A model generated the notes under the pieces. That model worked only from the letters and a program-made list of their open reading frames with translations. It was not told where the DNA came from and ran no database searches. Positions 3,668 through 19,786 of a stretch of 32,689 nucleotides of DNA are shown piece by piece; the stretch's first letter is position 1, and each line of letters begins with the position of its first letter. The translations under genes and the position numbers were made by a program. The stretch lies in IMG/VR virus record IMGVR_UViG_2859783438_000003. One strand, 5' to 3'. This stretch comes from a virus. Taxonomy: Duplodnaviria; Heunggongvirae; Uroviricota; Caudoviricetes.

Positions 3668-3946
3668 ATGGCGCAAAATTCCAGACTACACAATTCTGAT
3701 AATTCAGCCGTCTTTGCCAGCAGGCACGGGCGGCGCTCTCACGCATTTAAATCTGATTGGTACCAGCATCCCCCATGCACTGAAGAACAGGCCGAATGGC
3801 TCATTCAGTGTTACCGCAGGCGCGGATGCGAGGTTAAAAAAGCCCTTAGCCTCGACTACCGTCACTGGATAATCTCCGTCAGGCTCCCTTACTCCGAACG
3901 GCCAACGCGTCCGTCCCGCACATTCCAGCAACGGATCTGGAGGTAA
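3668..3946 (+). CDS. hypothetical basic protein (92 aa)
   Basis: ORF from track; its stop abuts the start of the DUF968 gene. Confidence 0.4.
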   Translation: MAQNSRLHNSDNSAVFASRHGRRSHAFKSDWYQHPPCTEEQAEWLIQCYRRRGCEVKKALSLDYRHWIISVRLPYSERPTRPSRTFQQRIWR

Positions 3947-3947
3947 T

Positions 3948-5006: not shown

Positions 5007-5387
5007 ATGACCGAGCGCATAGAATTTGTTTTACCTTACCCGCCGACGGTGAACACTTACTGGCGTCGTCGTGGCAGCACATATTTTGTATCAAAAGCCG
5101 GGGAGCGTTATCGCCGGGCAGTGGCGCTTATTGTTCGCCAGCAGCGGCTGAAATTAAGCCTGTCCGGAAGGTTGGCAATAAAAATTATTGCAGAACCACC
5201 GGATAAGCGCCGCCGTGACCTGGACAATATTCTGAAAGCGCCGCTGGATGCGCTGACGCATGCGGGGTTGCTAATGGACGATGAGCAGTTTGATGAAATC
5301 AATATCGTTCGTGCTCAGCCAGTATCTGGTGGACGTCTGGGGGTGAAGATTTATCCCATAATGCTTGAAGGGCAGGTCAAAAAATGA
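5007..5387 (+). CDS. rusA: RusA-type Holliday junction resolvase
   Basis: Translation has LPYPPTVNTYWRRRG... and RRRDLDNILKAPLDALT, matching the RusA fold and catalytic Asp region. Confidence 0.85.
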   Translation: MTERIEFVLPYPPTVNTYWRRRGSTYFVSKAGERYRRAVALIVRQQRLKLSLSGRLAIKIIAEPPDKRRRDLDNILKAPLDALTHAGLLMDDEQFDEINIVRAQPVSGGRLGVKIYPIMLEGQVKK

Positions 5388-6205
5388 AACTGGAAGATTT
5401 ACCGAAATACTACTCCCCAAAATCCCCCGGCCTGACTGATGCATCGGCCTCAACGTCGAAAGATGCGCTGAGTATCACTGATGTGATGGCCGCGCAGGGC
5501 ATGACACAGAATCGGGCTGAGATGGGGGTTTCTGCGTTCCTTGGGAAAATGGGCATTAGTATGAATGACAGAGAGCGGGCAACAGAATTGCTGACAGAAT
5601 ATGCACTCAGTCGGTGTGATCGCGTGGCGGCGTTAAGAAAACTCCCGGCAGAAATAAAACCGGCAGTGATGCGTATTATGGCTTCGTATGCGTTTGAAGA
5701 TTATGCCCGTAGCGCGGCGAGCAAAAAACAGTGCCCCTGCTGTCACGGAAAAAAATTTATTGAAAGCGAGGTTTTTACAAACAAGATCCAGTATCCGGAT
5801 GGTAAGCCGCCGGTATGGGCAAAGTGTACGAAAGGTGTGTATCCGTCTTACTGGGAAGAATGGAAAAAAGTCAGGGAGGTGGTAAAAGTTGCCTGTCCGG
5901 AGTGTGGCGGAAAGGGTGAGGTTTCCACCGCCTGTAAGGATTGCCGTGGGCGTGGTGTCGCCATTCATCGTGAAGAGTCGGTAAAACGTGGTATGCCTGT
6001 TATCAGAGACTGCCAGCGTTGTGGTGGTCGTGGCTATGAAAGACTACCATCAACGGAGGCATTTAATGCTATATGCGAGGTGACAAACCAGATAACACGC
6101 GCGTCATGGGAAAAAACAGTTAAGAAATTTTATGATGCGCTGGTGACCCGGTTTGATATTGAAGAAGCATGGGCTGAGCGGCAGTTAAAAAAGGTAACTA
6201 GGTAA
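5384..6205 (+). CDS. late antiterminator Q (Cys-rich, zinc-binding)
   Basis: 273 aa with several CxxC pairs (CPCCHGKK, CPECGGKG, CKDCRGRG, CQRCGGRG); position directly after rusA and before a PR'/tR'-like pair. Confidence 0.7.
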   Translation: MKLEDLPKYYSPKSPGLTDASASTSKDALSITDVMAAQGMTQNRAEMGVSAFLGKMGISMNDRERATELLTEYALSRCDRVAALRKLPAEIKPAVMRIMASYAFEDYARSAASKKQCPCCHGKKFIESEVFTNKIQYPDGKPPVWAKCTKGVYPSYWEEWKKVREVVKVACPECGGKGEVSTACKDCRGRGVAIHREESVKRGMPVIRDCQRCGGRGYERLPSTEAFNAICEVTNQITRASWEKTVKKFYDALVTRFDIEEAWAERQLKKVTR

Positions 6206-6210
6206 CAAGG

Positions 6211-6238
6211 TTGATTTTTCCGGAATCTGTGGTAAATT
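6211..6238 (+). promoter_or_regulatory. candidate late promoter PR' (TTGATT, 16-17 nt spacer, TAAATT)
   Basis: Hexamers read directly downstream of Q; TAAATT is the lambda PR' -10 as I recall it; the qut site is not delimited. Confidence 0.4.
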
Positions 6239-6287
6239 CGTCATAACGATGGGCGTTTTATGCCTGACGTTAGAAGAGTTTCTACAA

Positions 6288-6309
6288 CCCGCCGCCGAGC
6301 GGGTTTTTT
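6288..6309 (+). terminator. tR'-like intrinsic terminator
   Basis: GC hairpin cccgccgccgagcggg followed by tttttt about 50 nt after the putative start site. Confidence 0.5.
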
Positions 6310-6429
6310 ATGACTGAAATCGCGTCAGTACAGTAAACGCGCTGGTGGCGGTGAATACCTGTCTTTCAGCTTGCTGGCTTTTTCGACAAGAGTTATTGGT
6401 GTGTCACGTTAACCGGAAAAGGAAAAGAC

Positions 6430-6627
6430 ATGCTAAAACAGCAGGATATGACAGAAACCGCCAGAGTGGTGTTTAATGAATTAAGCGTTACCGAACCGGC
6501 GACAGTCGGGGAGATAGCGCAGAATACTTACCTTTCACGCGAACGCTGCCAGTTAATACTGACCCAGCTGGTTATGGCGGGTCTGGCAGACTATCAGTTC
6601 GGTTGTTACAGACGCCTTCCGCAGTGA
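6430..6627 (+). CDS. small putative HTH DNA-binding protein (65 aa)
   Basis: ORF from track; ATVGEIAQNTYLSRERCQLILTQL resembles a helix-turn-helix; followed by hairpin gccttccgcagtgaaggc plus T-run. Confidence 0.4.
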   Translation: MLKQQDMTETARVVFNELSVTEPATVGEIAQNTYLSRERCQLILTQLVMAGLADYQFGCYRRLPQ

Positions 6628-6777
6628 AGGCTTTTTTATTTGTGGTAAATGGGCGGCTGGTGGGTGTTAGGGGCACCCACCAGCCATCTGCTCATGCGTT
6701 GGGTTCACAAGCAAACCTCAGGCCCACTGCTTTGCGCAAAAGCAGAATGAGCCTATCAGAGACAGGCTTAATGATCC

Positions 6778-7836
6778 ATGCTTAATACTGTAAAAATATC
6801 CAGTTGTGAGTTAATCAACGCCGACTGCCTGGAATTTATCCGGTCGTTACCCGAAAATTCTGTTGACCTGATAGTCACGGACCCGCCGTACTTTAAAGTG
6901 AAGCCTGAGGGCTGGGATAACCAGTGGAAGGGCGACGATGATTACCTGAAGTGGCTGGACCAGTGTCTGGCGCAGTTCTGGCGGGTGCTGAAACCTGCCG
7001 GAAGTCTTTACCTGTTCTGTGGTCATCGCCTGGCATCTGATATCGAAATCATGATGCGTGAACGCTTCAGTGTGCTGAACCATATTATCTGGGCGAAGCC
7101 GTCCGGACGCTGGAACGGATGCAACAAGGAAAGCCTGCGGGCGTATTTCCCCGCCACAGAGCGCATTCTGTTCGCGGAACATTATCAGGGGCCGTATCGT
7201 CCGAAAGATGCCGGGTATGCGGCGAAGGGCAGTGCACTGAAACAGCATGTGATGGCCCCGCTGATTTCTTACTTTCGTGATGCGCGAGCTGCCCTGGGGA
7301 TAACGGCAAAACAGATTGCAGATGCCACAGGAAAGAAAAACATGGTGTCGCACTGGTTCAGTGCCGGTCAGTGGCAGTTGCCGAATGAAAGCGATTATCT
7401 GAAATTACAGGCGCTGTTTGCCCGGGTGGCAGAAGAGAAGCATCGGCGTGGTGAACTGGAAAAGCTCCACCACCAGCTGGTGGATACGTATACCTCACTG
7501 AACCGGCAGTATGCGGAGCTGCTGAGTGAATATAAACATCTGCGGCGGTATTTTGGCGTGACGGTGCAGGTGCCGTATACCGATGTGTGGACGCATAAAC
7601 CGGTGCAGTTCTATCCCGGGAAACATCCGTGCGAAAAACCGGCAGAAATGCTGCAGCAGATAATCAGCGCTAGCAGTCGTCCGGGTGACCTGATTGCAGA
7701 TTTTTTCATGGGGTTGGGTTCGACAGTGAAAGCGGCACTGGCGCTCGGGCGTCGTGCAATTGGCGTTGAGCTGGAGACTGAACGTTTTGAGCAGACGGTT
7801 CGGGAAGTACAGGATTTAGTCAGCCAGAACGGATGA
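6778..7836 (+). CDS. DNA amino-methyltransferase (N6-adenine or N4-cytosine), orphan
   Basis: DLIVTDPPYF (motif IV) near the N-terminus and FFMGLGST (SAM-binding FxGxG) near the C-terminus; no restriction endonuclease gene adjacent. Confidence 0.8.
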   Translation: MLNTVKISSCELINADCLEFIRSLPENSVDLIVTDPPYFKVKPEGWDNQWKGDDDYLKWLDQCLAQFWRVLKPAGSLYLFCGHRLASDIEIMMRERFSVLNHIIWAKPSGRWNGCNKESLRAYFPATERILFAEHYQGPYRPKDAGYAAKGSALKQHVMAPLISYFRDARAALGITAKQIADATGKKNMVSHWFSAGQWQLPNESDYLKLQALFARVAEEKHRRGELEKLHHQLVDTYTSLNRQYAELLSEYKHLRRYFGVTVQVPYTDVWTHKPVQFYPGKHPCEKPAEMLQQIISASSRPGDLIADFFMGLGSTVKAALALGRRAIGVELETERFEQTVREVQDLVSQNG

Positions 7837-7876
7837 TATTGAAGAATTAATTACGCGTCGTTATTATGCGGCTCCC

Positions 7877-7952
7877 GGCCCTTTAGCTCAGTGGTGAGAG
7901 CGAGCGACTCATAATCGCCAGGTCGCTGGTTCAAATCCAGCAAGGGCCACCA
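7877..7952 (+). tRNA. tRNA with CAU anticodon (Met or lysidine-type Ile2)
   Basis: Cloverleaf folded by hand: 7-bp acceptor ggccctt/aagggcc, anticodon loop ctCATaa, T-loop ttcaaat, CCA encoded. Confidence 0.8.
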
Positions 7953-7959
7953 TCACATA

Positions 7960-8036
7960 CCGCCATTAGCTCATCAGGAAAGAGCGCCAGCCTTCGAAGC
8001 TGGCTGCGCGGGGTTCAAGTCCCCGATGGCGGTCCA
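7960..8036 (+). tRNA. tRNA-Arg (anticodon UCG)
   Basis: Acceptor ccgccat/atggcgg, anticodon stem ccagc/gctgg with loop ctTCGaa, T-loop ttcaagt, CCA encoded. Confidence 0.75.
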
Positions 8037-8049
8037 TTATCTGCATCAT

Positions 8050-8126
8050 GCGTTGTTAGCTCAGCCGGACAGAGCAATTGCCTTCTAAGCAATCGGTCAC
8101 TGGTTCGAATCCAGTACAACGCGCCA
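8050..8126 (+). tRNA. tRNA-Arg (anticodon UCU)
   Basis: Acceptor gcgttgt/acaacgc, anticodon stem attgc/gcaat with loop ctTCTaa, T-loop ttcgaat, CCA encoded. Confidence 0.8.
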
Positions 8127-8140
8127 CACTTATTTTCCCT

Positions 8141-8167
8141 GGCTCGCTTTTGCGGGCCTTTTTTTTT
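8141..8167 (+). terminator. intrinsic terminator after the tRNA array
   Basis: Hairpin ggctcgc-tttt-gcgggcc followed by a 9-nt T-run. Confidence 0.6.
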
Positions 8168-8173
8168 AAATGT

Positions 8174-8400
8174 CTCACAATTCAGACGGTTGACAGTTGT
8201 CTGTTTTGCGGGGAGTTTGTTAAAAGAAACTGGCATGGTGAATCCCCCTGTGCGGAGGGGCAATCAGCGAGTAGGTATATGGGATAATCGCGGATTCAGG
8301 TGCTGGTACTGAATTCACCGGGAGGCACCCGGCATCATGCAATGGCACATAGCGCCACTCTCCAGCCCTCTCCGGAGGGGCTTTTCTGTGCCGGATACAT
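8174..8400 (+). ncRNA. structured non-coding module A (candidate sRNA or regulatory leader)
   Basis: TTGACA hexamer near the 5' end, three GC hairpins (cccct/agggg; ccggg/cccgg; ccctc/gaggg + T-run); paralogous to module B; no conserved ORF. Confidence 0.25.
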
Positions 8401-8640
8401 CACAGTTTCTGGAACCTTAGGTACTACAGTATCAGTCAGGGTGCTATATTTTCAGATGTGATGAAAGCCTGTCAGCAGGCAGGGCGTATCGGAAATGACC
8501 CAGTAGAGAAAACGTTGACTCAGATACCGGTGCTGAGTTACCGGGAAACCGGCATCACATGACCGCTATCCTTCCAGGCCCATCCGCTCCGGTGGGCCTT
8601 TTTACTGCAGAAAACAGGTTCCCCGTTAAATGCTATGTTG

Positions 8641-8880
8641 CTCACAATTCAGTAAGTTGACAGTTGCCTGTCAGACTGGGCATTTGTTAAAAAAATTTCG
8701 CATGGTGAATCCCCCTGAGCGGAGGGGCGACTGGTGACGGTATAATCTCTGATTATCAAAACGAGAATGACGCGGGTTTAGTGGCACCGGGCTGAACTCA
8801 CCGGGAGGCACCCGGCACCATGTGCATGATGATACAGATACGCGGCTTTAGCCCCTCTCCGGAGGGGTTTTCTTGTGGGC
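8641..8880 (+). ncRNA. structured non-coding module B (paralogue of A)
   Basis: Same block order as A (ctcacaattcag, gttgacagttg, tttgttaaaa, gcatggtgaatccccctg.gcggaggggc, caccgggaggcacccggca, cccctctccggagggg + T-run); preceded by its own hairpin + T-run. Confidence 0.25.
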
Positions 8881-9102
8881 AAAAAAAGCCCGCGCTGGGA
8901 GACGCGGGCGGCAAGGAATAAACAATAAAACGTGAAGTAATATTTCAGCTGGCGAATAATACCCCATAGTAATCACTCTGCGCAACTGCGCGGTCTTTTT
9001 CGAATTGCGGGCTGTCGTCTCTCTTCTGCCATTGTCCTGTAACTTCCGGACTTCAGCCCGCTCCTTATTTTACTCACAATATTATCCCGGCCGGGAGGAT
9101 TC

Positions 9103-10956
9103 ATGGCATTTAAACACTATGACGTGGTCAGGGCGGCATCGCCGTCAGACCTTGCGAAACGACTGACACAAAAACTGAAGGAGGGCTGGCAGCCGTTTGG
9201 TAGTCCGGTGGCCATAACCCCTTATACCCTGATGCAGGCGATTGCAGCAGAAGGTGATGTGGTCGTCAGTGGTGCAACTGAGCCGGAGTGGTACTACGTC
9301 ATCGTACTGGCCGGGCAATCCAATGCCATGGCTTACGGTGAAGGTCTTCCGCTTCCGGATTCATACGATGCGCCCCATCCGCGCATTAAGCAACTGGCCC
9401 GTCGTAACACAGTGACTCCCGGTGGTGAAGTATGCGTATTTAACGACATCATTCCTGCTGACCATTGTCTGCATGATGTTCAGGATATGAGTACGATTAA
9501 CCATCCCCGGGCTGACCTGAGCAAAGGGCAGTACGGCTGTGTCGGACAGGGCTTACATATTGCCAAAAAACTGCTTCCGTATATCCCTAATAATGCGGGG
9601 ATCCTGCTGGTACCATGCTGTTGTGGTGGTTCGGCATTCACCCAGGGCACGGAGGGGACATTCAGCGAGTCCACGGGGGCCAGTCAGGATTCGGCTCGCT
9701 GGGGAGTGGGTAAGCCGTTATATCAGGATCTGCTTTTCCGCACGAAGGCAGCATTGCAGAAAAACCCGAAAAACGTTTTGCTGGCGATATGCTGGATGCA
9801 GGGGGAATTCGATATGACGAATGCCAGTTACGCCCAGCAGCCAGCAGCATTTCTTGCAATGGTACAGCAGTTCCGTGCTGACCTTGCCGGGCTGGCGGCG
9901 CAGTGTCACGGTGGAAGTCCGGCATCAGTCCCCTGGATTTGTGGCGACACGACATACGCGTGGAAACAAGAACACGGTACGCAATATGAAGTGGTATATG
10001 GTGCATATAAAGGTAAAGAATCCCAGCAGATTTATTTTGTTCCCTTTATGACCGATGGTAGCGGAGTTAATACACCGACAAACAACCCGTCAGAAGATCC
10101 TGATATTGCCGGGTCTGGTTATTACGGTTCGGCATCCCGAACGAACAAAAACTGGGTATCATCAAATCGCCCGACGCATTTCAGCTCATGGGCGCGTCGT
10201 GGCATTATTCCCGATCGTATGGCAACTGCTATTCTGAACGTAGCCGGTCGCACCTTAGCCTTCATTAGTGGTAAGGCACCGGAAATCAAACCCTCGCCCG
10301 GCGGCGACACGCCATCGGGGCCGTCTGAAGATGCATCCATACGCACAATCTCCCTGTTGCCGACAGCCGGAGACGCTGCTGCGCAGGGCTGGAGCATTAA
10401 GAATGGCGGAGTTCAGTTGTCAGATGGTGTATTTAAGATCACCAAGCAGAGCAATAAAGCCTGGTCCCTGACGCGCCCGGTGGATGACGCAGTCTCCCTG
10501 CTGACACGGGGTGGCAGACTGAGCTGTAAGTTTCGACTGTCAGGCGCACTGACCAACAACCAGTTCGGTCTGGGAATTTATCTGTATACCGATGTAGCGT
10601 TACCTGACGTCGTGGCGATGACCGGGACTGGTAACCCGTTCCTGATGTCGTTCTTCACCCAGACCACAGACGGCAAACTGAATCTGATGCATCACAAGAA
10701 AGCAGGAAACACAAAGTTGGGCGAGTTCGGGAATTACAGTAACGACTGGCTGACGCTGGAGCTGGTGTTCACCGCCGGCAGTGCCACGGTTACTCCGAAA
10801 CTGAATGGAGTGGCTGGCCCGGCATTCCAGGTCATAAAAGACAGTCTGACACTGGGGCTGAATGCGCTGACGCTGACGGATATTACCAAAAATGCAGCGT
10901 ATGGCGTTGAGATAGAAAGTCTGGTGCTGGAGATAAATGCACCGGCATCATCATAA
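9103..10956 (+). CDS. NanS-p-like sialate O-acetylesterase (DUF1737 N-terminal domain + SGNH/SASA esterase core)
   Basis: 617 aa; N-terminus MAFKHYDVVRAASPSDLAKRL... and VIVLAGQSNAMAYGEG with the SGNH-type Ser; sits where prophage nanS-p genes sit downstream of the Q-tRNA block. Confidence 0.8.
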   Translation: MAFKHYDVVRAASPSDLAKRLTQKLKEGWQPFGSPVAITPYTLMQAIAAEGDVVVSGATEPEWYYVIVLAGQSNAMAYGEGLPLPDSYDAPHPRIKQLARRNTVTPGGEVCVFNDIIPADHCLHDVQDMSTINHPRADLSKGQYGCVGQGLHIAKKLLPYIPNNAGILLVPCCCGGSAFTQGTEGTFSESTGASQDSARWGVGKPLYQDLLFRTKAALQKNPKNVLLAICWMQGEFDMTNASYAQQPAAFLAMVQQFRADLAGLAAQCHGGSPASVPWICGDTTYAWKQEHGTQYEVVYGAYKGKESQQIYFVPFMTDGSGVNTPTNNPSEDPDIAGSGYYGSASRTNKNWVSSNRPTHFSSWARRGIIPDRMATAILNVAGRTLAFISGKAPEIKPSPGGDTPSGPSEDASIRTISLLPTAGDAAAQGWSIKNGGVQLSDGVFKITKQSNKAWSLTRPVDDAVSLLTRGGRLSCKFRLSGALTNNQFGLGIYLYTDVALPDVVAMTGTGNPFLMSFFTQTTDGKLNLMHHKKAGNTKLGEFGNYSNDWLTLELVFTAGSATVTPKLNGVAGPAFQVIKDSLTLGLNALTLTDITKNAAYGVEIESLVLEINAPASS

Positions 10957-11041
10957 AAAGTGAGCCAGCCAAATGGAAGGTATCGTTAAACTCACCGGTA
11001 GTGTCAGTGGGTCGTCTGAGATGCCTGCATGAGTTATCAGA

Positions 11042-11071
11042 GCCATCAGTACTTAACTGGTGGCTTTTTTT
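11042..11071 (+). terminator. intrinsic terminator between nanS-p and S
   Basis: Hairpin gccatcag...ctggtggc followed by ttttttt; lies inside the upstream extension of the holin ORF, arguing for the 11107 start. Confidence 0.4.
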
Positions 11072-11106
11072 ATTGTTGTCAGCTTCCGGATAACGGGAGA
11101 CGGGGT

Positions 11107-11322
11107 ATGTACCAGATGGAAAAAATCACAACAGGTGTGTCATACACCACGTCAGCGGTGGGAACGGGCTACTGGTTCCTGCAGTTGCTGGACAGGGTTT
11201 CCCCGTCTCAGTGGGCGGCAATAGGCGTGCTGGGGAGTCTGCTGTTTGGGCTGCTGACATATCTGACTAACCTGTATTTCAAAATCAGAGAGGACCGTCG
11301 TAAGGCTGCACGGGGAGAGTAA
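11107..11322 (+). CDS. S: holin S, class II / pinholin-like (S21 type), dual-start motif
   Basis: [71 protein letters not shown]; two TM segments and a charged C-terminus; Met1/Met4 dual start. Confidence 0.8.
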
Positions 11323-11326
11323 TTCA

Positions 11327-11641
11327 ATGACTCAAAACTATGAACTGATTGTGAAAGGGATCCGCAATTTTGAGAATAAAGTTACGGTAACTTTAGCGTT
11401 ACGGGACAAAAAACGCTTTGACGGTGAAATTTTTGACCTGGACATCTCGCTGGACCGTGTTGAAGGTGCCGCGCTGGAGTTTTATGAGGCAGCAGCCAGA
11501 AGGAGCATCAGACAGGTCTTCCTGGATGTTGCTGCCGGGTTATGTGAAGGGGACGAGCTGTTGCCAGAAACGCGCCCCTGTTCAGAGGCGCGGTATACCA
11601 TAAAAATTAACAGTTCTGATAACTCGATTACGGGTTGTTAG
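11327..11641 (+). CDS. YdfR-like protein (DUF1327) between holin and endolysin
   Basis: 104-aa ORF in the holin-to-endolysin position, as in cryptic lambdoid prophages of E. coli; assignment by position and recollection, not by search. Confidence 0.5.
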   Translation: MTQNYELIVKGIRNFENKVTVTLALRDKKRFDGEIFDLDISLDRVEGAALEFYEAAARRSIRQVFLDVAAGLCEGDELLPETRPCSEARYTIKINSSDNSITGC

Positions 11642-11696
11642 CTTTTTGCAGTTGGCTTTCCAGTATCTTTCATTGGTAGCATCCTGATAAATATCC

Positions 11697-11750
11697 ATGA
11701 GCGCAAAAATCAAATACGGCCTGTCAGCTGCTGTTCTGGCGCTGATTGCA
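11697..11750 (+). pseudogene. R: SAR endolysin R, only the N-terminal signal-anchor retained
   Basis: Frame opens MSAKIKYGLSAAVLALIA, then loses lysozyme-like sequence and stops after 56 codons inside a tandem repeat. Confidence 0.5.
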
Positions 11751-11873
11751 AAATGGCATCTGAATCGATCGCAGTTTGGCATTCGAATCGATCATGATTT
11801 GGCATCCATCTCCGATCACAGTTTGGCATCACAATCGATCACGATTTGGCATACTTCCGATCATTGATTGGAA
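11751..11873 (+). repeat. five tandem 23-24-bp direct repeats (TTTGGCAT..ATCGATCA..A), each with a GATC, ending at the gap
   Basis: Units read at 11751, 11775, 11798, 11822, 11845, then ttggaa and the N run. Confidence 0.8.
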
Positions 11874-11973
11874 NNNNNNNNNNNNNNNNNNNNNNNNNNN
11901 NNNNNNNNNNNNNNNNNNNNNNNNNNNNNNNNNNNNNNNNNNNNNNNNNNNNNNNNNNNNNNNNNNNNNNNNN
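11874..11973. other. assembly gap (100 N), size unknown
   Basis: Run of N between the tandem repeats and an inverted IS3-family left end. Confidence 0.95.
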
Positions 11974-12145
11974 AAGAGATAATCGGGAAGCGCCTTCACT
12001 GATCGAAAGTTGATTTTCAAGAACCGTTCTGACAGCTTCGGCTTTGAACTCTTTAGAGTAACGTTGGGTTTTTCTGCTCATTATTAGCTCCTTCTGATGC
12101 CATTCTATTTCAGGAAGGAGTGTCCGTTAAACTCAGGCTACCTCA
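11974..12145 (-). mobile_element. IS3-family (IS600-like) left end, second copy, inverted relative to 1507..1955
   Basis: Reverse complement of the 1507..1680 sequence (1 mismatch seen); orfA N-terminus MSRKTQRYSKEFKAEAVRTVLENQLSISEGASRLSL on the minus strand; terminal ...cctca at 12145. Confidence 0.75.
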
Positions 12146-12292
12146 GCCGGAAGAACAGACTGGCTTCCTCTCTGTTCATCGGCAGATAGCCTATTTCATC
12201 CAGGATCAACACCCGGGCATAACTCAGTTGCTGTAGCTGACGCTCCAGCCGGTTTTCCTGTTTCGCTTTCAATGTAAAAGTCCTCTCTGCTC
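12146..12292 (-). pseudogene. fragment of an IS21-family IstB-like AAA+ helper gene
   Basis: Minus-strand translation ...KQENRLERQLQQLSYARVLILDEIGYLPMNREEASLFFRL has the LILDE.GY Walker-B signature; stop just upstream and the IS3-family end downstream. Confidence 0.4.
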
Positions 12293-12395
12293 AGCATGTT
12301 GATGTCCTTTCTGGTGTGAGAACCTTAAGGAAACAACATGTTGGGTGGAGCGGACAATCCAAATGGCGAATTACCGTCTTATATCACTGGCGCTG

Positions 12396-12473
12396 ACATC
12401 TCCGGATGACGGGGGCAGCTGTTATCTCTGGCTCAACCGTGGGCAACCACCCGCAGTTAACCGGCGACGATAA
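12396..12473 (+). pseudogene. 3' remnant of a lambda FII-like head-tail joining gene
   Basis: Translation ...SPDDGGSCYLWLNRGQPPAVNRRR* resembles the lambda FII C-terminus; no similarity further upstream. Confidence 0.5.
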
Positions 12474-12487
12474 ACGCAGGGTGAATT

Positions 12488-13063
12488 ATGGCGATAAAAG
12501 GGCTTGATCAGGCGATTGACAATCTGAGCCGGGTTCGTAAAAACGCCATTCCGGCTGCTTCTGCAATGACCATTAACCGCGTGGCCACAACGGCGATTAA
12601 TCAGTCTTCGTCACAGGTTGCCCGGGAAACCAGGGTGAGACGGAAACTGGTAAAGGAACGGTCCAGACTGAAACGGGCGACGGTCAGAAATCCGAATGCC
12701 AGAATTATCGTTAACCGCGGTGATCTCCCTGTGATTAAGCTGGGGATCAGAATGCTGGGGCGTCGTCCGAACAGCATACTCAAAGCCGGTCAGCATCGTT
12801 ATCAGCGGGCATTTATCCAGCGATTAAATAATGGGCGCTGGCATGTTATGCAACGTCTTCCCCAGGCCAGATATGAGGAGGGCAATGACGACAAGGGAAG
12901 GAAAAAGCGTAATCGCCTTCCCATTCAGGTGGTGAAAATCCCGATGGCGGCCCCACTGAAACAGGCATTTGATGAGAATGTTGACCGTATCCGGCGTGAA
13001 CGCCTGCCTAAAGAACTGGCATACGCGCTGAAACAACAACTGAGGATTGCGATAAAACGATGA
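12488..13063 (+). CDS. Z: tail completion protein Z
   Basis: MAIKGLDQAIDNLSRVRKNAIPAASAMTINRV... and C-terminal [23 protein letters not shown] closely resemble lambda gpZ. Confidence 0.85.
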   Translation: MAIKGLDQAIDNLSRVRKNAIPAASAMTINRVATTAINQSSSQVARETRVRRKLVKERSRLKRATVRNPNARIIVNRGDLPVIKLGIRMLGRRPNSILKAGQHRYQRAFIQRLNNGRWHVMQRLPQARYEEGNDDKGRKKRNRLPIQVVKIPMAAPLKQAFDENVDRIRRERLPKELAYALKQQLRIAIKR

Positions 13064-13455
13064 AACACACTGACATTCGTGCCGCAGTGCTGGATGCACT
13101 CGAGCAGCATGAACACGGGGCGACGCTGTTTGATGGTCGCCCCGTTGTTTTTGACGAAGAGGATTTTCCTGCGATCGCGGTTTATCTGACGGATGCAGAG
13201 TATACCGGTGAAGAGCTGGATGCAGATACCTGGCGGGCCACACTGCATATTGAGGTGTTTTTACCGGCACAGGTACCTGATTCGGAGCTCGATCAGTGGA
13301 TGGAAAGCCGGATTTATCCGGCGATGACTGCGATCCCTGCACTGGCAGGACTGATTACCACGATGGTTACGCAGGGCTATGAGTATCGTCGTGATGACGA
13401 TATGGCGTTATGGAGCTCTGCGGATCTGACTTATTCCATTACATACGAGATGTGA
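13060..13455 (+). CDS. U: tail terminator protein U
   Basis: [43 protein letters not shown]... ...[10 protein letters not shown] resembles lambda gpU. Confidence 0.85.
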
Positions 13456-13462
13456 GGACGAT

Positions 13463-14215
13463 ATGGCAACACCAAATCCCCTGGAGCCGGTAAAAGGTGC
13501 CGGTACCACTCTGTGGGTTTACAACGGCAAGGCTGATGCTTATGCAAACCCGTTGTCAGACGATGACTGGCAGCGACTGGCTAAGGTGAAGGATCTGACG
13601 CCGGGCGAGATGACGGCTGAATCCTATGATGATAACTACCTGGATGATGAAGACGCGGACTGGAGCGCGACCGGGCAGGGGCAGAAATCTGCAGGTGATA
13701 CCAGTTTTACGCTGGCCTGGAAACCGGGAGAGGAAGGCCAGAAAGGGCTTATAGGCTGGTTTGAAAGCGGCGATGTCCGGGCCTATAAAATCCGTTTTCC
13801 GAATGGCACGGTGGATGTGTTTCGTGGCTGGGTCAGCAGTATCGGTAAGGCCGTGACGGCGAAAGAAGTGATCACCCGCACGGTGAAAGTCACTAACGTG
13901 GGTAAACCTTCTGTAGCGGAAGAACGCAGCAAAATTACGCCGGTCAGTGCGATTAAGGTGACGCCGACATCCGGTACGGTGGCAAAAGGGAAAACAACCA
14001 CCCTGACGGTTTCTTTTGAGCCGGAAAGTGCAACCGACAAGACGTTCAGAGCGGTTTCCGCCGATCCGTCGAAAGCCACCATTAGTGTGAAAGATATGAC
14101 AATTACGGTAAACGGCGTGGCGACAGGTAAGGTGCAGATCCCTGTGGTGAGCGGAAATGGTCAGTTCGCCGCAGTGGCTGAAGTCACCGTTACTGAAGCG
14201 GGCGCTGCAGGGTAA
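13463..14215 (+). CDS. V: major tail protein V with C-terminal Ig-like domain
   Basis: [18 protein letters not shown]...[41 protein letters not shown] resembles lambda gpV. Confidence 0.9.
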
Positions 14216-14228
14216 ACGGAGGTAATAC

Positions 14229-14660
14229 ATGTTTCTGAAAACAGAACAATTTGAATATAACGGTGTGTCTGTCACGCTTTCCGAATTGTCTGCGCTGCAG
14301 CGTATCGAGCATCTTGCCCTCCTGAAACGGCGTGCAGAACAGGCAGAATCCAGCGGCAACCTGCAGGTAAGCGTGGAAGATCTCGTCAGAACCGGCGCGT
14401 TTCTGGTGGCGATGTCCCTGTGGCATAACCATCCACAGAAAACGCAGTCACCGTCAATGAATGAGGCCGTGATGAAGATAGAGCAGGAAGTGCTCACCAC
14501 CTGGCCTGCCGATGCCATTGCCCGGGCGGAAGACGTGGTGTTGTGCCTGTCCGGGATGATCGAAGCTGTTCGTCCGGATACTGATATTACTGAAGTGGCG
14601 AAAAATAACACGCTGACTGATGATGATTTTTCTGCGGGAAAGTCTTCGACGGCGAGCTGA
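14229..14660 (+). CDS. G: tail assembly chaperone G
   Basis: MFLKTEQFEYNGVSVTLSELSALQRIEHLALLKRRAEQAES... resembles lambda gpG; slippery GGGAAAG near the 3' end. Confidence 0.85.
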   Translation: MFLKTEQFEYNGVSVTLSELSALQRIEHLALLKRRAEQAESSGNLQVSVEDLVRTGAFLVAMSLWHNHPQKTQSPSMNEAVMKIEQEVLTTWPADAIARAEDVVLCLSGMIEAVRPDTDITEVAKNNTLTDDDFSAGKSSTAS

Positions 14661-15100
14661 ACTTTGCCCTCAGACTGGCGCGTGAGATGGGGAGACCCGA
14701 CTGGCGCGCCATGCTTGCCGGGATGACATCCACCGAATATGCCGACTGGCGCCGTTTTTACCGCACGCATTATTTTCAGGATACCCAGCTGGATATGCAT
14801 TTTTCCGGGCTGACGTACGCTGTACTCAGCCTGTTTTTTTGCGATCCGGATATGCATCCCTCTGATTTCAGTCTGCTTGTCCCCCGGCATGAGGAAGAGC
14901 AGGTGGAGAGGCCGGATGAGGACAAAATGCTGATGCAGAAAGCGGCAGGACTTGCCGGAGGCGTCCGGTTCGGTGGGGACGGAGGGCGCGATATTTTATC
15001 GTCTGCGGATGTGGCGGATGTCATGGTGGATGATGCCGCATTAATGATGGCTTCAGCGGGGATTCCGGGAGGTGTGAGATATGTCCCAGCCGGTTGGTGA
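14229..15100 (+). CDS. T: tail assembly chaperone G-T, made by programmed -1 frameshift at G GGA AAG (14636..14642)
   Basis: Slippery heptamer in the zero frame of G; the -1 frame continues GKVFDGELNFALRLAREMGRPDWRAMLAGMTSTEY..., matching lambda gpT. Confidence 0.75.
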
Positions 15101-18008
15101 TCTTGTTATTGACCTGAGTCTGGATGCTGTCCGTTTCGATGAGCAGATGAGCCGGGTAAGGCGTCATTTTTCAGGTCTGGATACCGACGCCAGAAAAACC
15201 GCCAGTGCTGTTGAACAGGGCCTGAGCCGCCAGGCGCTGGCTGCACAAAAAGCCGGGATTTCCGTCGGGCAGTATAAAGCGGCCATGCGAACCCTGCCCG
15301 CACAGTTTACGGATATCGCCACGCAGCTTGCCGGTGGTCAGAATCCCTGGCTGATCCTGCTGCAACAGGGCGGTCAGGTGAAGGACTCCTTCGGCGGGAT
15401 GATCCCCATGTTCAGGGGGCTTGCCGATGCGATCACCCTGCCGATGGTCGGGGTCACCTCGCTGGCGGTGGCGACAGGTGCACTGGTGTACGCCTGGTAC
15501 CAGGGAGATTCCACGCTTTCAGCGTTTAATAAAACCCTGGTTCTTTCCGGTAATCAGTCCGGACTGACTGCCGATCGTATGCTGACTCTCTCAAGAGCCG
15601 GGCAGGCAGCAGGGCTGACGTTTAACCAGGCGAGAGAGTCACTGGCAGCCCTGGTGAATGCCGGTGTGCGTGGTGGTGAACAGTTTGATGCCATCAACCA
15701 GAGTGTCGCGCGTTTTGCGTCTGCATCCGGTGTGGAGGTGGATAAAGTCGCTGAAGCCTTCGGGAAGCTGACCACTGACCCGACGTCGGGACTGATGGCG
15801 ATGGCGCGCCAGTTCCGTAACGTGACGGCAGAGCAGATTGCGTATGTTGCACAGCTGCAGCGTTCCGGAGACGAGGCCGGGGCATTGCAGGCGGCGAACG
15901 ATATCGCCACGAAAGGCTTTGATGAGCAGACCCGTCGCCTGAAAGAAAACATGGGAACACTGGAGACCTGGGCGGATAAAACAGGGAAGGCATTCAAATC
16001 GATGTGGGATGCCATTCTGGATATCGGTCGTCCGGAATCCTCAGCGGATATGCTCGCCAGTGCGCAGAAGGCATTTGATGAGGCGGATAAAAAATGGCAG
16101 TGGTACCAGAGTCGGAGCCAGCGCCGCGGTAAAACCTCCTCTTTCCGGGCCAACCTTCAGGGCGCATGGGATGACCGGGAAAATGCCCGTCTGGGTCTGG
16201 CAGCGGCAACGCTGCAGTCGGATATGGAAAAAGCCGGTGAACTGGCGGCAAGGGACAGGGCTGAGCGTGAGTCGTCACAGCTGAAGTATACCGGAGAGGC
16301 GCAGAAGGCGTATGAGCGCCTGCTGACGCCACTGGAGAATGCAGTCGGATATGGAAAAAGCCGGTGAACTGGCGGCAAGGGACAGGGCTGAGCGTGAGTC
16401 GTCACAGCTGAAGTATACCGGAGAGGCGCAGAAGGCGTATGAGCGCCTGCTGACGCCACTGGAGAAATATACCGCCCGGCAGGAAGAGCTGAATAAGGCC
16501 CTGAAAGACGGGAAAATCCTGCAGGCGGATTACAACACGCTGATGGCGTCGGCAAAAAAGGATTATGAGTCGACGCAGAAAAAGCCGTCCGGTGTGAAGG
16601 TGTCTGCCGGTGAGCGCCAGGAAGACCAGGCGCATGCAGCCCTGCTGGCGCTTGAAACTGAGCTCAGGACGCTGGAGAAGCACAGCGGTGCGAATGAAAA
16701 AATCAGCCAGCAGCGCCGTGATTTATGGAAAGCGGAAAATCAGTATGTNNNNNNNNNNNNNNNNNNNNNNNNNNNNNNNNNNNNNNNNNNNNNNNNNNNN
16801 NNNNNNNNNNNNNNNNNNNNNNNNNNNNNNNNNNNNNNNNNNNNNNNNAAGACCAGGCGCATGCAGCCCTGCTGGCGCTTGAAACTGAGCTCAGGACGCT
16901 GGAGAAGCACAGCGGTGCGAATGAAAAAATCAGCCAGCAGCGCCGTGATTTATGGAAAGCGGAAAATCAGTATGTGGTCCTGAAAGAGGCCGCCACGAAA
17001 CGGCAGTTATCTGAGCAGGAAAAATCCCTGCTGGCCCATGAGAAAGAAACGCTGGAGTACAAACGCCAGCTGGCTGAGCTGGGCGACAAGATTGAACACC
17101 AGAAACGGCTGAATGAGCTGGCACAGCAGGCGGCGCGGTTTGAACAGCAGCAGAGCGCGAAGCAGGCGGCAATCAGCGCAAAAGCCCGCGGACTCACCGA
17201 CCGTCAGGCGCAGCGGGAGTCGGAAGAGCAGCGCCTTCGTGAGGTGTACGGTGATAATCCGGCTGCGCTGGCGAAGGCCACATCTGCACTGAAGAACACC
17301 TGGTCTGCGGAGGAGCAGCTTCGTGGAAGCTGGATGGCCGGGATGAAGTCCGGCTGGGGCGAGTGGGCGGAAAGTGCGACGGACAGTTTTTCGCAGGTTA
17401 AAAACGCGGCCACGCAGACCTTTGACGGTATTGCACAGAATATGGCAGCGATGCTGATCGGCAGCGAACAGAACTGGCGTGGTTTCACCCGTTCTGTGCT
17501 GTCCATGCTGACAGAGATTTTTCTGAAGCAGGCGATGGTGGGGATAGTCGGGAGTATCGGCAGCGCCATTGGCGGTGCTTTCGGTGGTGGTGCGTCTGCC
17601 TCCACGGGGACGGCCATTCAGGCTGCGGCGGCGAACTTCCATTTCGCGACCGGGGGATTTACGGGGACGGGGGGTAAATATGAACCTGCGGGGATTGTTC
17701 ATCGCGGGGAGTTTGTCTTCACGAAGGAGGCGACCAGCCGGATTGGTGTCGGCAATCTGTACCGCCTGATGCGGGGCTATGCGGAAGGTGGTTATGTCGG
17801 CGGTGCCGGAAGTCCGGCGCAGATGCGGCGGGCGGAAGGCATTAATTTTAATCAGAACAATCACGTGGTGATTCAGAACGACGGCCCCAACGGGCGGGCA
17901 GGGCCGCAGCTGATGAAAGCGGTGTATGAGATGGCCCGCAAGGGGGCACAGGATGAACTCCGGCTGCAGTTGCGTGATGGCGGTATGTTATCAGGGAGCG
18001 GTGGATGA
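15081..18008 (+). CDS. H: tail tape measure protein H (reading frame broken in this assembly)
   Basis: N-terminus MSQPVGDLVIDLSLDAVRFDEQMSRVRRHFSG and C-terminus ...NNHVVIQNDGPNGRAGPQLMKAVYEMARKGAQDELRLQLRDGGMLSGSGG resemble lambda gpH; split into three track ORFs by a 125-bp tandem duplicate and an N gap. Confidence 0.8.
16214..16463 (+). repeat. 125-bp tandem duplication inside H (16214..16338 and 16339..16463) that shifts the frame
   Basis: Two adjacent near-identical copies differing by one base at the junction; the frame-0 ORF stops at 16367 and a frame-1 ORF restarts at 16339. Confidence 0.8.
16749..16848. other. assembly gap (100 N) inside H, flanked by an identical 127-bp direct repeat (16622..16748 and 16849..16975)
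   Basis: The 127 bases before and after the N run read identically, typical of overlapping contig ends that were not merged. Confidence 0.85.
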
Positions 18009-19042: not shown

Positions 19043-19786
19043 ATGACACAGACTGAATCAGCGATTCTGGCACATGCCCGGCGGTGTGCGCCTGCGGAGT
19101 CGTGCGGCTTCGTGATAAGCACGCCGGAGGGGGAGCGGTATATCCCTTGTGTGAATATTTCCGCAGAGCCGGAGGCGTATTTTCGTATCGCACCGGAAGA
19201 CTGGCTGCGGGCAGAGATGCAGGGGGAGATTGTGGCACTGGTCCACAGTCATCCCGGTGGGCTGCCCTGGCTGAGCGAGGCTGACCGGCGGTTGCAGATA
19301 AAAAGCGCACTGCCCTGGTGGTTGGTCTGCCGGGGTGACATTCACAAATTCCGCTGTGTGCCACATCTGACAGGACGGCGCTTTGAGCACGGGGTGACGG
19401 ACTGTTACACGCTGTTCCGGGATGCTTATCATCTGGCGGGGACTGAAATGCCGGATTTTCATCGCGAGGATGACTGGTGGCGCAACGGTCAGAACCTTTA
19501 CCTGGACAATATGGCGGTCACCGGCTTTTACCGGGTGCCCCTGTCCTCTGCACAGGCGGGCGATATTCTGCTGTGCTGCTTTGGTGCTTCGGTACCGAAC
19601 CATGCCGCCATTTACTGCGGCAACGGTGAGCTGCTTCACCATCTGCCTGAACAACTGAGTAAACGGGAGAGGTATTCCGAAAAATGGCAACGACGAACGC
19701 ATTCAGTCTGGCGTCACCGCCACTGGCACGCATCTGCCTTCACGGGGATTTACAACGATTTGGCCGCCGCCTCAGCCTGTATGTGA
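19043..19786 (+). CDS. K: tail assembly protein K (NlpC/P60-like)
   Basis: MTQTESAILAHARRCAPAESCGFVISTPEGERY... with conserved Cys and His; 3' end overlaps I and may run long. Confidence 0.75.
   Translation: MTQTESAILAHARRCAPAESCGFVISTPEGERYIPCVNISAEPEAYFRIAPEDWLRAEMQGEIVALVHSHPGGLPWLSEADRRLQIKSALPWWLVCRGDIHKFRCVPHLTGRRFEHGVTDCYTLFRDAYHLAGTEMPDFHREDDWWRNGQNLYLDNMAVTGFYRVPLSSAQAGDILLCCFGASVPNHAAIYCGNGELLHHLPEQLSKRERYSEKWQRRTHSVWRHRHWHASAFTGIYNDLAAASACM

What the first reader, a model, noticed from the sequence alone, without database searches (positions are those of the whole stretch)
11697..12487. Lysis-to-tail junction: endolysin cut after its signal-anchor, head and terminase genes absent, IS debris in their place
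After S and the YdfR-like ORF, a frame opens with a SAR-endolysin-like N-terminus (MSAKIKYGLSAAVLALIA) but stops after 56 codons with no lysozyme domain. It is followed by five tandem repeats, an N gap, an inverted IS3-family end, an IstB-like fragment, and only the last 23 or so codons of an FII-like gene before Z. No Rz, Nu1, A, W, B, C, D, E or FI is visible. The FII remnant lies on the far side of the IS fragments, so the head module is unlikely to be hidden in the gap. The element therefore looks like a tail-plus-holin remnant that cannot package DNA or lyse. A head-less lambda-type tail cluster is also the layout of F-type tailocins, but the broken endolysin and the lesions in I and J argue for decay rather than domestication.
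Basis: partly seen in the sequence, partly recalled or inferred. Interest (0 to 1): 0.5.

Follow-up and report, generated by a model that had tools for sequence, protein, structure and literature searches.

The report
IS-scarred headless prophage remnant, Shigella sonnei
In this draft Shigella sonnei genome, three nested insertion sequences have replaced a decaying lambda-like prophage's lysis-enzyme, DNA-packaging and head genes; this ordinary decay is already visible in finished genomes of the species, and several of the "lesions" seen here are assembly artefacts.

Summary
Its supporting argument was weak, and some details are assembly artefacts.

**What the window is.** It is a short-read scaffold of five contigs joined by 100-N runs, from Shigella sonnei.

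**The junction.**
- The endolysin gene keeps only nt 1-50.
- It abuts the left end of ISSso4 (IS21 family). The "five tandem repeats" are that element's subterminal repeats.
- After the gap come IS600 (minus strand), two slices of IS21 (minus strand), and the last 24 codons of FII.

**What fills the gap.** Four closed S. sonnei genomes are 99.98-100% identical on both flanks. In them the gap is 1,250 bp of ISSso4 and IS600 only, with no phage genes.
- About 10.5 kb is gone: the rest of R, then Rz, Nu1, A, W, B, C, D, E, FI and most of FII.
- The single IS600 lies between two unrelated IS fragments and has no 3-bp target duplication. That marks it as a deletion scar.

**Assembly artefacts.**
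- The tiny IstB fragment is an artefact. Exactly 127 nt of repeat flank each join (k=127), and 1,567 bp of IS21 were skipped.
- Two 127-bp duplications in tape-measure gene H are artefacts of the same kind.

**Not a tailocin.** J carries a stop and a frameshift in all the closed genomes examined across it. Six other closed S. sonnei genomes (FORC_011 among them) have deleted the whole tail module from the same IS600 anchor.

The result is ordinary and already known, so interest is low.

The parts
11107..11322 (+). Class II (phage 21-type) holin S, 71 aa, intact
   Evidence: Pfam PF04971 Phage_holin_2_1, E=9e-33. Annotated 'class II holin family protein' in matching E. coli records.
11327..11641 (+). 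YdfR/DUF1327 ORF, 104 aa, intact
   Evidence: Pfam PF07041, E=5e-39. Annotated 'YdfR family protein' in E. coli records.
11697..11746 (+). 5' remnant of the endolysin gene R: nt 1-50 of a 534-nt gene. The next 3 nt (TGC) are shared with the IS end.
   Evidence: 100% identical to E. coli 042 up to 11749. The intact 042 protein is 177 aa with Phage_lysozyme PF00959 at residues 33-167. Only residues 1-18 match.
11697..11867 (+). 56-codon chimeric ORF: 17 endolysin codons read through into the ISSso4 end. No lysozyme domain.
   Evidence: The identical ORF is called in closed S. sonnei genomes.
11747..11873 (+). ISSso4 (IS21 family) left end, nt 1-127, plus orientation. It contains the five ~23-bp subterminal repeats. 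The contig stops exactly 127 nt into the repeat.
   Evidence: 100% identical to the sequence upstream of istA in an annotated ISSso4. Inverted copies of the motif sit at the other end of a full ISSso4. TRF result.
11874..11973 (.). 100-N scaffold gap. In closed relatives it equals 1,250 bp: ISSso4 nt 128-285 plus the 3' 1,092 bp of IS600. No phage genes.
   Evidence: The window flanks map to L008 10177 and 11428 at 99.98-100% identity. Composition of L008 10178-11427. L011 and L020 differ from L008 by 1 and 0 nt across the junction.
11974..12145 (-). IS600 (IS3 family), nt 172-1. Left inverted repeat at 12145, orfA start codon at 12081.
   Evidence: Terminus located.
12145..12271 (-). IS21 istB internal slice, exactly 127 nt (base 12145 is shared with the IS600 end). 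The IS600|IS21 junction at 12145/12146 is the right side of the deletion scar.
   Evidence: 99.2% identical to IS21 istB. Same junction in L008 at 11599/11600.
12272..12398 (-). IS21 left end, nt 127-1 (inverted repeat plus the first 26 nt of istA), exactly 127 nt. The 12271/12272 join is an assembly artefact that omits 1,567 bp of IS21 (all of istA and the 5' part of istB).
   Evidence: L008 11726-13292 is absent from the window and is bounded by 127 nt on each side. Closed genomes call a 390-aa IstA and a 184-aa IstB' here.
12399..12473 (+). 3' remnant of head-tail joining gene FII: codons 94-117 plus the stop
   Evidence: 97-98% identical to 042 FII from nt 280. Translation SPDDGGSCYLWLNRGQPPAVNRRR* equals the C-terminus of 042 FII. 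Intact FII hits PF05354.
12488..13063 (+). Minor tail protein Z, 191 aa, intact. First gene of the retained tail module.
   Evidence: Pfam PF06763, E=1e-50. The identical protein follows a full head module in many E. coli-type genomes.

Best explanation
The window is a short-read draft (k=127) of Shigella sonnei. It covers a defective lambdoid prophage in which about 10.5 kb has been replaced by a nest of three insertion sequences.

**True structure, read from closed genomes of the same species:**
holin S - ydfR - R nt 1-50 | ISSso4 nt 1-285 (+) | complete IS600, 1,264 bp (-) | IS21 nt 1820-1 (-; IstB truncated, istA intact) | FII nt 280-354 - Z - U - V - G - T - H ...

**What was lost:** the rest of endolysin R, then Rz/Rz1, Nu1, A, W, B, C, D, E, FI and the first 93 codons of FII.

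**Most likely history (inferred, not shown):**
1. ISSso4 inserted into R.
2. IS21 inserted into FII.
3. The interval between them was then lost in an IS600-associated deletion. The likeliest route is homologous recombination between two direct IS600 copies, one in ISSso4 and one in IS21 istB. That would leave a single hybrid IS600 with no target-site duplication.

**Consequences:** the remnant cannot package DNA, build heads or degrade murein. The tail module is also decaying, because J is a pseudogene.

**Gap:** the 100-N gap hides only IS sequence.
For: **Identification of the pieces (shown).**
- Exact mapping of every piece to annotated ISSso4, IS600, IS21 and the intact E. coli 042 prophage.

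**Closed genomes (shown).**
- The identical 56-aa ORF occurs in 75 collection blocks with contigs over 1 Mb.
- L008, L011, L013 and L020 are contiguous from this ORF to Z and the tail genes.
- L008, L011 and L013 match the window at 99.9-100% on both sides of the gap; L020 is identical to L008 across the 3.5-kb junction.
- L008, L011 and L020 differ by 0-1 nt over the 3.5-kb junction.
- The gap corresponds to 1,250 bp of ISSso4 plus IS600.

**Deletion scar.**
- IS600 lies between two unrelated IS fragments with flanks AAC and GCC.
- A simple IS600 insertion in the same data set has a TCC/TCC 3-bp duplication.

**Organism.**
- HE616528.1 is S. sonnei 53G and CP010829.1 is S. sonnei FORC_011 (PMC5447701).
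- IS21, IS600 and ISSso4 are among the 12 IS types of 53G (PMC7373316).

**Ancestral state.**
- The identical Z protein lies behind a full lysozyme-Rz-Nu1-A-W-B-C-D-E-FI-FII module in many genomes.

**Assembly signature.**
- The three repeat stubs are each exactly 127 nt.
- There are two exact 127-bp duplications in H.

**General mechanism.**
- IS-mediated deletion between homologous IS copies is described for Shigella (PMC7373316).
Against: - The left side of the scar (ISSso4 nt 285 | IS600 right end) lies inside the window's gap. It is inferred for this isolate from relatives, not observed.
- The order of the IS insertions and the deletion route (two-copy recombination or transposase-mediated adjacent deletion) are inferences. 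No intermediate was found, meaning IS21 in FII with heads still present, or ISSso4 in R with the rest of R present. None was in 5,426 complete E. coli genomes, in species-representative genomes or among 10 contexts of the identical Z protein.
- This scaffold has other questionable joins, for example at 30800-31411. Adjacency of the two contigs in this particular isolate is therefore likely but not proven.
Confidence: 0.92

Rival explanations
1. The head module is present but hidden. ISSso4 simply inserted into R and IS21 (later hit by IS600) simply inserted into FII. The intervening 10.5 kb then assembled as a separate contig bounded by IS repeats and was left out of the scaffold.
For: - Both contigs end inside multi-copy IS elements, exactly 127 nt into the repeat on the left side.
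- The gap is a fixed 100 N of unknown true size.
- Each phage breakpoint coincides with an intact IS terminus, as a simple insertion would give.
Against: - Four closed genomes carry the identical junctions, with flanks matching the window or one another at 99.9-100%. They contain no phage sequence between the two junctions.
- The window itself carries the IS600|IS21-nt-1820 junction that forms the right side of the scar.
- In the closed genomes IS600 has no target duplication and different IS fragments on its two sides.
Confidence: 0.02
2. In this isolate the two contigs are not neighbours. An IS600- or IS21-mediated inversion or translocation separates the holin side from the tail side, and the scaffolder joined them by graph or reference. 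The head genes are still deleted.
For: - S. sonnei has hundreds of IS copies and IS-mediated rearrangements (PMC7373316).
- The scaffold shows other irregular joins: the collapsed IS600 at 1507-1955, and the unmatched 31169-31411 preceded by a 95%-identity stretch.
Against: All closed genomes that have both the ORF and the IS21'-FII'-Z junction place them 3.4 kb apart in the same orientation. Both contig ends fit that layout exactly.
Confidence: 0.05
3. It is a domesticated F-type (lambda-tail-like) tailocin: a head-less tail cluster kept with a holin for release.
For: - The layout is a head-less lambda-type tail cluster behind Q and a holin.
- Z, U, V, G, T, H (857 aa in closed genomes), M, L and K are intact.
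Against: - The endolysin is reduced to 17 codons and Rz/Rz1 are deleted.
- The tail-tip gene J has an in-frame stop after codon 67 and a frameshift in the window and in closed genomes L016, L017 and L018.
- Six closed S. sonnei genomes (FORC_011 among them) have deleted the whole tail module, 16.5 kb, from the same IS600.
- The deletion boundaries are IS termini inside genes, not a tidy module boundary.
Confidence: 0.02

Closest known systems
The same locus in closed Shigella sonnei genomes (UGZB01000001.1, CP026802.1, CP032523.1, JANXIY010000004.1; tail part also in 53G, HE616528.1)
   Same: Identical 56-aa ORF, identical IS600|IS21 and IS21|FII junctions, 99.98-100% flank identity.
   Different: - The closed genomes show the 1,250 bp hidden by the gap.
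- They also show the 1,567 bp of IS21 skipped in the window and an intact H.
- Their I gene lacks the window's two 1-bp deletions.
Intact lambdoid prophage of E. coli 042 (NC_017626.1, about 1.41-1.43 Mb) and relatives
   Same: Same gene order: Q - tRNAs - SASA esterase - holin - ydfR - lysozyme ... FII - Z - U - V. Identity is 99.9% up to R nt 53 and 97-98% from FII nt 280.
   Different: 042 keeps the 10.5-kb R-Rz-Nu1-A-W-B-C-D-E-FI-FII interval that the IS elements have replaced here.
IS-driven genome degradation in Shigella (Hawkey et al. 2020, PMC7373316)
   Same: IS600, IS21 and ISSso4 are resident IS of S. sonnei. IS elements interrupt genes and mediate deletions between homologous copies.
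   Different: The paper does not mention prophages (0 occurrences of 'prophage'), so it does not describe this locus. The stepwise deletions anchored on one IS600 copy are my reading of the closed genomes.
Phage 21-type lysis cassette (class II holin/pinholin plus signal-anchor-release endolysin); own knowledge for the pairing
   Same: The holin hits the P21 holin family. The ancestral endolysin has an N-terminal Gly/Ala-rich hydrophobic segment followed by a Phage_lysozyme domain.
   Different: Only codons 1-17 of the endolysin survive, and Rz/Rz1 are gone. The cassette is not functional as a lysis system.
F-type tailocins (for example F-pyocins); own knowledge
   Same: Lambda-like flexible-tail gene cluster without head genes.
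   Different: There is no working lysis cassette, J is a pseudogene, and the module has been lost in part of the species.
E. coli Z1323PEC0008 prophage (NZ_CP148289.1, L001)
   Same: An independent head-less derivative of the same prophage type, with ydfR adjacent to FII.
   Different: It is a clean deletion with no IS at the junction. FII is complete, ydfR is fused or extended, and its tape-measure gene is cut by an IS66-family element.

Membership tests
ISSso4 (IS21 family) - left-end stub at 11747-11873 | Sequence identity to an annotated ISSso4, positioned upstream of istA | tested here: met
   127-128 nt are 100% identical to L003 4001-4128, which lies 105 nt upstream of the istA annotated 'IS21-like element ISSso4 family transposase'.
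ISSso4 (IS21 family) - left-end stub at 11747-11873 | 5'-TG terminus and multiple subterminal repeats present in inverted orientation at both ends (family trait; own knowledge) | tested here: met
   - The stub starts TGCAAAATGGCAT.
- There are five TGGCAT-bearing ~23-bp units.
- Two inverted copies lie near the right end of the complete element in L003.
ISSso4 (IS21 family) - left-end stub at 11747-11873 | istA and istB genes present (a complete element) | tested here: not met
   In closed genomes only nt 1-285 remain and IS600 follows directly. It is a fragment, not a functional IS.
IS600 (IS3 family) | Identity to annotated IS600; 1,264-bp element with orfAB; 3-bp target duplication on simple insertion | tested here: met
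   - The window piece is 97.8-100% identical to IS600 copies.
- The full 1,264-bp copy with a 385-aa transposase is present in closed genomes.
- A control insertion shows a TCC duplication. The scar copy shows none, as expected after a deletion.
IS21 | Identity to annotated IS21 istA/istB and the left inverted repeat | tested here: met
   - The two 127-nt slices are 99.2% identical to IS21.
- L008 carries 1,820 nt at 98.4-98.6% identity, with a 390-aa IstA and a 184-aa truncated IstB.
Signal-anchor-release (SAR) endolysin | Lysozyme catalytic domain following the N-terminal anchor | tested here: not met
   - The intact homologue has PF00959 at residues 33-167.
- The window ORF shares only residues 1-18.
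- SAR behaviour of the ancestral protein itself was not tested. It is inferred from the Gly/Ala-rich N-terminus and the P21-type holin.
Lambdoid prophage capable of producing virions | Terminase (Nu1/A), portal, protease/scaffold, major capsid and head-tail connector genes | tested here: not met
   All are absent between R' and FII' in the window and in four closed relatives. They are present in E. coli 042 and nine other genomes with the identical Z protein.
F-type tailocin | Head genes absent | tested here: met
F-type tailocin | Complete, intact set of tail genes including tip/host-specificity protein J | tested here: not met
   - J is split into 67, 547 and 513 aa by a stop and a frameshift, both in the window and in closed genomes.
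- I is additionally frameshifted in the window.
F-type tailocin | Functional lysis cassette for release (holin plus endolysin, with or without spanin) | tested here: not met
   The holin is intact. The endolysin is truncated at codon 17 and Rz is deleted.
F-type tailocin | Particle production and killing activity | not testable with these tools
   Needs induction, electron microscopy and killing assays.

The most novel reading that the evidence does not exclude
The structural half of this prophage may be being erased stepwise from one fixed IS600 anchor.

- The first step would have removed R'-FII' (about 10.5 kb).
- A second step, in six closed genomes including FORC_011 (lineage IIIc), removed a further 16.5 kb: IS21', FII' and every tail gene.
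- Meanwhile the upstream Q-tRNA-SASA/NanS-like esterase-holin segment stays intact across the species.

If that asymmetry reflects selection for the esterase/tRNA 'moron' block, the locus would be a small natural example of selective prophage pruning and a usable lineage marker. The alternative is that the asymmetry only reflects where the IS elements happen to sit.
Probability: 0.15. Interest if true: 0.25.

Novelty: already known. Interest (0 to 1): 0.08.

Why it matters
Biologically it matters little. It is one more case of IS-mediated prophage decay in Shigella sonnei, a species known for IS expansion, and the exact structure already sits in several finished public genomes.

The practical lesson concerns reading draft scaffolds.
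- The fixed 100-N runs are joins of unknown size between contigs that here end in multi-copy repeats (IS elements, or the internally repeated H segment).
- Stubs of exactly k nt (here 127) at contig ends, exact k-nt duplications and IS copies with 'internal deletions' are assembler signatures, not mutations.
- Three apparent lesions in this window are of that kind: the tiny IstB fragment, the broken tape-measure gene and the collapsed IS600 at 1507-1955.
- The stepwise deletions anchored on a single IS600 copy could serve as a lineage marker.

Tried and rejected
- **Intermediate states in E. coli.** I searched 5,426 complete E. coli genomes for either junction (R|ISSso4 and IS21|FII). No record covers 80% or more of either query.
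- **Species-representative genomes.** An exact 38-nt R|ISSso4 junction scan of 185,579 genomes gave 0 hits.
- **Other contexts of the identical Z protein.** Ten contexts were read. Nine have an FII gene called immediately upstream of Z, eight of them behind a complete head module and one (L021) with a partly IS-disrupted one. One is the S. sonnei scar. None has IS21 in FII with heads retained.
- **A 12-13-nt overlap between the IS600 and IS21 matches** suggested that IS600 might carry IS21 sequence with it. Comparison of flanks showed only a chance 8-nt similarity (tgttcttc), so I rejected this.
- **Literature search** for 'IS21 family' plus 'multiple repeated sequences' found nothing. The statement that IS21-family ends carry multiple subterminal repeats rests on my own knowledge and on the direct check of both ends of a full ISSso4.
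- **The IS21 'internal deletion' at 12271/12272 as a real event.** I rejected this. Both slices are exactly 127 nt, the same length as the ISSso4 stub and the two duplications in H, and closed genomes have the full 1,820 nt.
- **First Pfam call** failed on a one-base coordinate error and was repeated successfully.
Full report
**1. The observation**

- The ORF 11697-11867 has 56 codons.
- Its first 18 residues, MSAKIKYGLSAAVLALIA, are identical to the start of the 177-aa lysozyme of an intact lambdoid prophage in E. coli 042. After that there is no similarity.
- The intact protein has a Phage_lysozyme domain at residues 33-167, and none of it survives here.
- Upstream lie an intact phage 21-type class II holin (11107-11322) and a YdfR/DUF1327 ORF (11327-11641).
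- Downstream of the ORF start lie five TGGCAT-bearing ~23-bp units (TRF: period 23, 4.3 copies).
- Then come a run of exactly 100 N (11874-11973), IS-like sequence on the minus strand, the last 24 codons of FII (12399-12473) and Z (12488-13063; Pfam Minor_tail_Z, E=1e-50).

**2. What kind of sequence the window is**

The window contains four runs of exactly 100 N, so it is a scaffold of five contigs.

Contig ends and internal joins carry a k-mer signature.
- The ISSso4 stub is 11747-11873, exactly 127 nt.
- The two IS21 slices are 12145-12271 and 12272-12398, each exactly 127 nt.
- The tape-measure gene H contains two exact 127-bp duplications: 16213-16339/16340-16466, and 16622-16748/16849-16975 across a gap.
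- Closed genomes have a single copy of each of these H segments and an intact 857-aa H.

My inference is that assembly-graph edges with k=127 were concatenated without trimming overlaps, and repeat interiors were skipped. Apparent lesions next to such joins are therefore not mutations.

**3. Identity of each piece**

- **11697-11746:** endolysin R nt 1-50. The next three bases, TGC, are common to R and the IS end, which is why 18 residues match.
- **11747-11873:** the left end of ISSso4, an IS21-family element, in plus orientation. It is 100% identical to the sequence just upstream of istA in an annotated copy.
  - The 'tandem repeats' are this element's subterminal repeats.
  - Inverted copies of the same motif sit near the right end of a complete ISSso4.
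- **11974-12145:** IS600 (IS3 family) on the minus strand. This is its first 172 nt, with the left inverted repeat and the start of orfA at 12081.
- **12145-12271:** an internal slice of IS21 istB on the minus strand.
- **12272-12398:** the first 127 nt of IS21 on the minus strand (left inverted repeat and 26 nt of istA).
- **12399 onward:** FII from nt 280.

ISSso4 and IS21 are different elements of the same family.

**4. Closing the gap in silico**

The exact 56-aa ORF is on record in 196 blocks of the assembly collection, 75 of them with contigs longer than 1 Mb.
- Two of the records involved are identified in the literature: HE616528.1 is S. sonnei 53G and CP010829.1 is S. sonnei FORC_011 (PMC5447701).
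- IS21, IS600 and ISSso4 are three of the 12 IS types of 53G (PMC7373316).

Four closed genomes are contiguous from the ORF to the tail genes: L008 (UGZB01000001.1), L011 (CP026802.1), L013 (JANXIY010000004.1) and L020 (CP032523.1). Alignment of the window to L008 gives:

| Window | L008 | Note |
|---|---|---|
| 1740-11873 | 45-10177 | 99.98% identity |
| 100-N gap | 10178-11427 | 1,250 bp |
| 11974-12271 | 11428-11725 | 100% identity |
| 12272-16339 | 13293-17360 | 99.98% identity |

- The 1,250 bp are ISSso4 nt 128-285 plus the remaining 1,092 bp of IS600. No phage gene is among them.
- L008 11726-13292, which is 1,567 bp of IS21 interior, is simply missing from the window (section 2).
- L011 and L020 differ from L008 by 1 and 0 nt over the 3.5-kb junction.

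The real structure is therefore:
R nt 1-50 | ISSso4 nt 1-285 (+) | IS600 1,264 bp (-) | IS21 nt 1820-1 (-; IstA 390 aa, IstB' 184 aa) | FII nt 280-354 | Z.

**5. What was lost**

In E. coli 042 the interval between the two breakpoints is about 10.5 kb. It encodes the rest of the lysozyme, Rz, two small ORFs, terminase small and large subunits, W, portal, the S49 protease, the decoration protein, the major capsid protein, FI and most of FII.

The identical Z protein follows a complete module of this kind in eight of the ten contexts read, and a partly IS-disrupted one in a ninth (L021). That is the ancestral state.

Neither junction occurs in 5,426 complete E. coli genomes or in species-representative genomes. 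Among the collections searched, the junctions were found only in records of the S. sonnei type.

**6. Mechanism**

*Shown.* The single IS600 has an ISSso4 fragment on one side and an IS21 fragment on the other.
- Its 3-bp flanks are AAC and GCC.
- A simple IS600 insertion in the same data set (L006 5609-6872) is flanked by a TCC duplication.
- The scar IS600 therefore sits at a deletion junction, not at a simple insertion.

*Inferred.*
- ISSso4 had inserted into R and IS21 into FII, because each phage breakpoint is an intact IS terminus.
- The DNA between them was then lost through IS600.
- IS3-family elements transpose by copy-out/paste-in (own knowledge). The most likely route is therefore recombination between two direct IS600 copies, one in ISSso4 and one in IS21 istB.
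- Deletion between homologous IS copies is the process described for Shigella in PMC7373316.
- A transposase-mediated adjacent deletion is the alternative.

*Related observation.* Six other closed genomes, L006, L007, L009, L010, L012 and L014 (L014 is FORC_011, lineage IIIc), keep the same left flank of this IS600. Their right flank is window position 27444.
- That means a further 16.5 kb has gone: IS21', FII' and the whole tail module up to the tail-fibre gene.
- 53G (lineage II) keeps the tail module.
- The locus is being eroded stepwise from one IS anchor.

**7. The tailocin alternative**

Head genes are absent and Z through K are intact, but three observations count against a tailocin.
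- There is no endolysin and no Rz.
- J has an in-frame stop after codon 67 and a frameshift. It is called as 67, 547 and 513 aa, in the window and in closed genomes L016-L018.
- Part of the species has deleted the whole module.

The window's I gene has two 1-bp deletions (20011, 20064) that four closed genomes lack. These may be real private mutations or errors.

The defining features of a tailocin were tested and not met.

**8.

- The argument offered for 'nothing in the gap' was not sufficient. Two simple IS insertions would give the same contig ends. The closed genomes supply the missing evidence.
- 'IS debris' is partly an assembly artefact.
- The endolysin is cut within its N-terminal hydrophobic segment, not after it.

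**9. Novelty**

None. The structure is present in several finished public S. sonnei genomes, and the process is textbook Shigella genome degradation.

**10. Caveats**

- The left side of the scar is not observed in this isolate.
- Adjacency of the two contigs in this isolate is inferred from relatives.
- The scaffold has at least one other doubtful region. Window 30800-31168 is only 95.4% identical to the closed genomes, and 31169-31411 is unmatched and opens with MNNNNTLYVGLDVHKESITVAYAINSEPVEL.
- The order of IS events is inference.

Noticed in passing
window 16213-16466 and 16622-16975: There are two exact 127-bp duplications in tape-measure gene H, one abutting directly and one across the 100-N gap at 16749-16848. 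Closed genomes have a single copy of each and an intact 857-aa H. These are untrimmed k=127 contig overlaps, and they make H look frameshifted.
   Followed up: yes
window 1507-1955: This IS600 copy has its interior (815 bp) skipped by the assembly: nt 1-233 abut nt 1049-1264. Closed genomes have the full element here. Its flanks (ttt / tcc) show no 3-bp target duplication, so this copy probably also marks a deletion or rearrangement at the left edge of the prophage remnant.
   Followed up: partly
window 20011 and 20064 (gene I, 19682-20362): There are two single-base deletions relative to four closed S. sonnei genomes, in which I is an intact 226-aa ORF. They are private to this assembly and may be real mutations or sequencing errors.
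   Followed up: partly
window 20706-24157 (gene J): J carries an in-frame stop after codon 67 and a later frameshift, giving pieces of 67, 547 and 513 aa. Both lesions are shared with closed genomes L016-L018, so they are real and old.
   Followed up: yes
window 20363-20705: About 340 nt between the stop of I and the start of J contain no long ORF. Related intact prophages call a small ORF of about 84 aa in this position (L019 17624-17878).
   Followed up: no
L006, L007, L009, L010, L012, L014 (closed S. sonnei, including FORC_011), locus positions 10336-11600: The same IS600 copy has a different right flank, equal to window 27444 onward. A further 16.5 kb has been deleted: IS21', FII' and all tail genes Z through most of the tail-fibre gene. 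These genomes also have an extra IS600 between the methyltransferase and the esterase gene (window about 8570, TCC duplication).
   Followed up: partly
L001 (E. coli Z1323PEC0008, NZ_CP148289.1) 6428-7154: This is an independent head-less derivative of the same prophage type. ydfR runs directly into a complete FII gene with no IS at the junction, and its tape-measure gene is truncated by an IS66-family element.
   Followed up: partly
window 30800-31411: The last 369 nt that still align to the closed genomes are only 95.4% identical, against 99.9% or more elsewhere. The next 243 nt, up to gap 4, match none of the fetched loci and open with a peptide MNNNNTLYVGLDVHKESITVAYAINSEPVEL, which looks like the start of an IS110-family transposase (from memory, not tested). 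This may be a paralogous copy or a mis-join.
   Followed up: partly
window 506-1044 and 31512-31730: Gap 1 is flanked on both sides by sequence that the closed genomes place in Pfam IS1-transposase genes. Gap 4 has such sequence on its right side only. The gaps at 727-826, 11874-11973 and 31412-31511 have IS sequence on at least one flank. The one in H is an overlap artefact.
   Followed up: partly
window 7877-8126: Three tRNA genes (anticodons CAT, TCG, TCT) lie between the methyltransferase and the 617-aa SASA/DUF6645 esterase gene (9103-10956). The CAT tRNA is annotated tRNA-Ile in matching E. coli records. This Q-tRNA-esterase-holin block is intact in all the S. sonnei genomes examined.
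   Followed up: no
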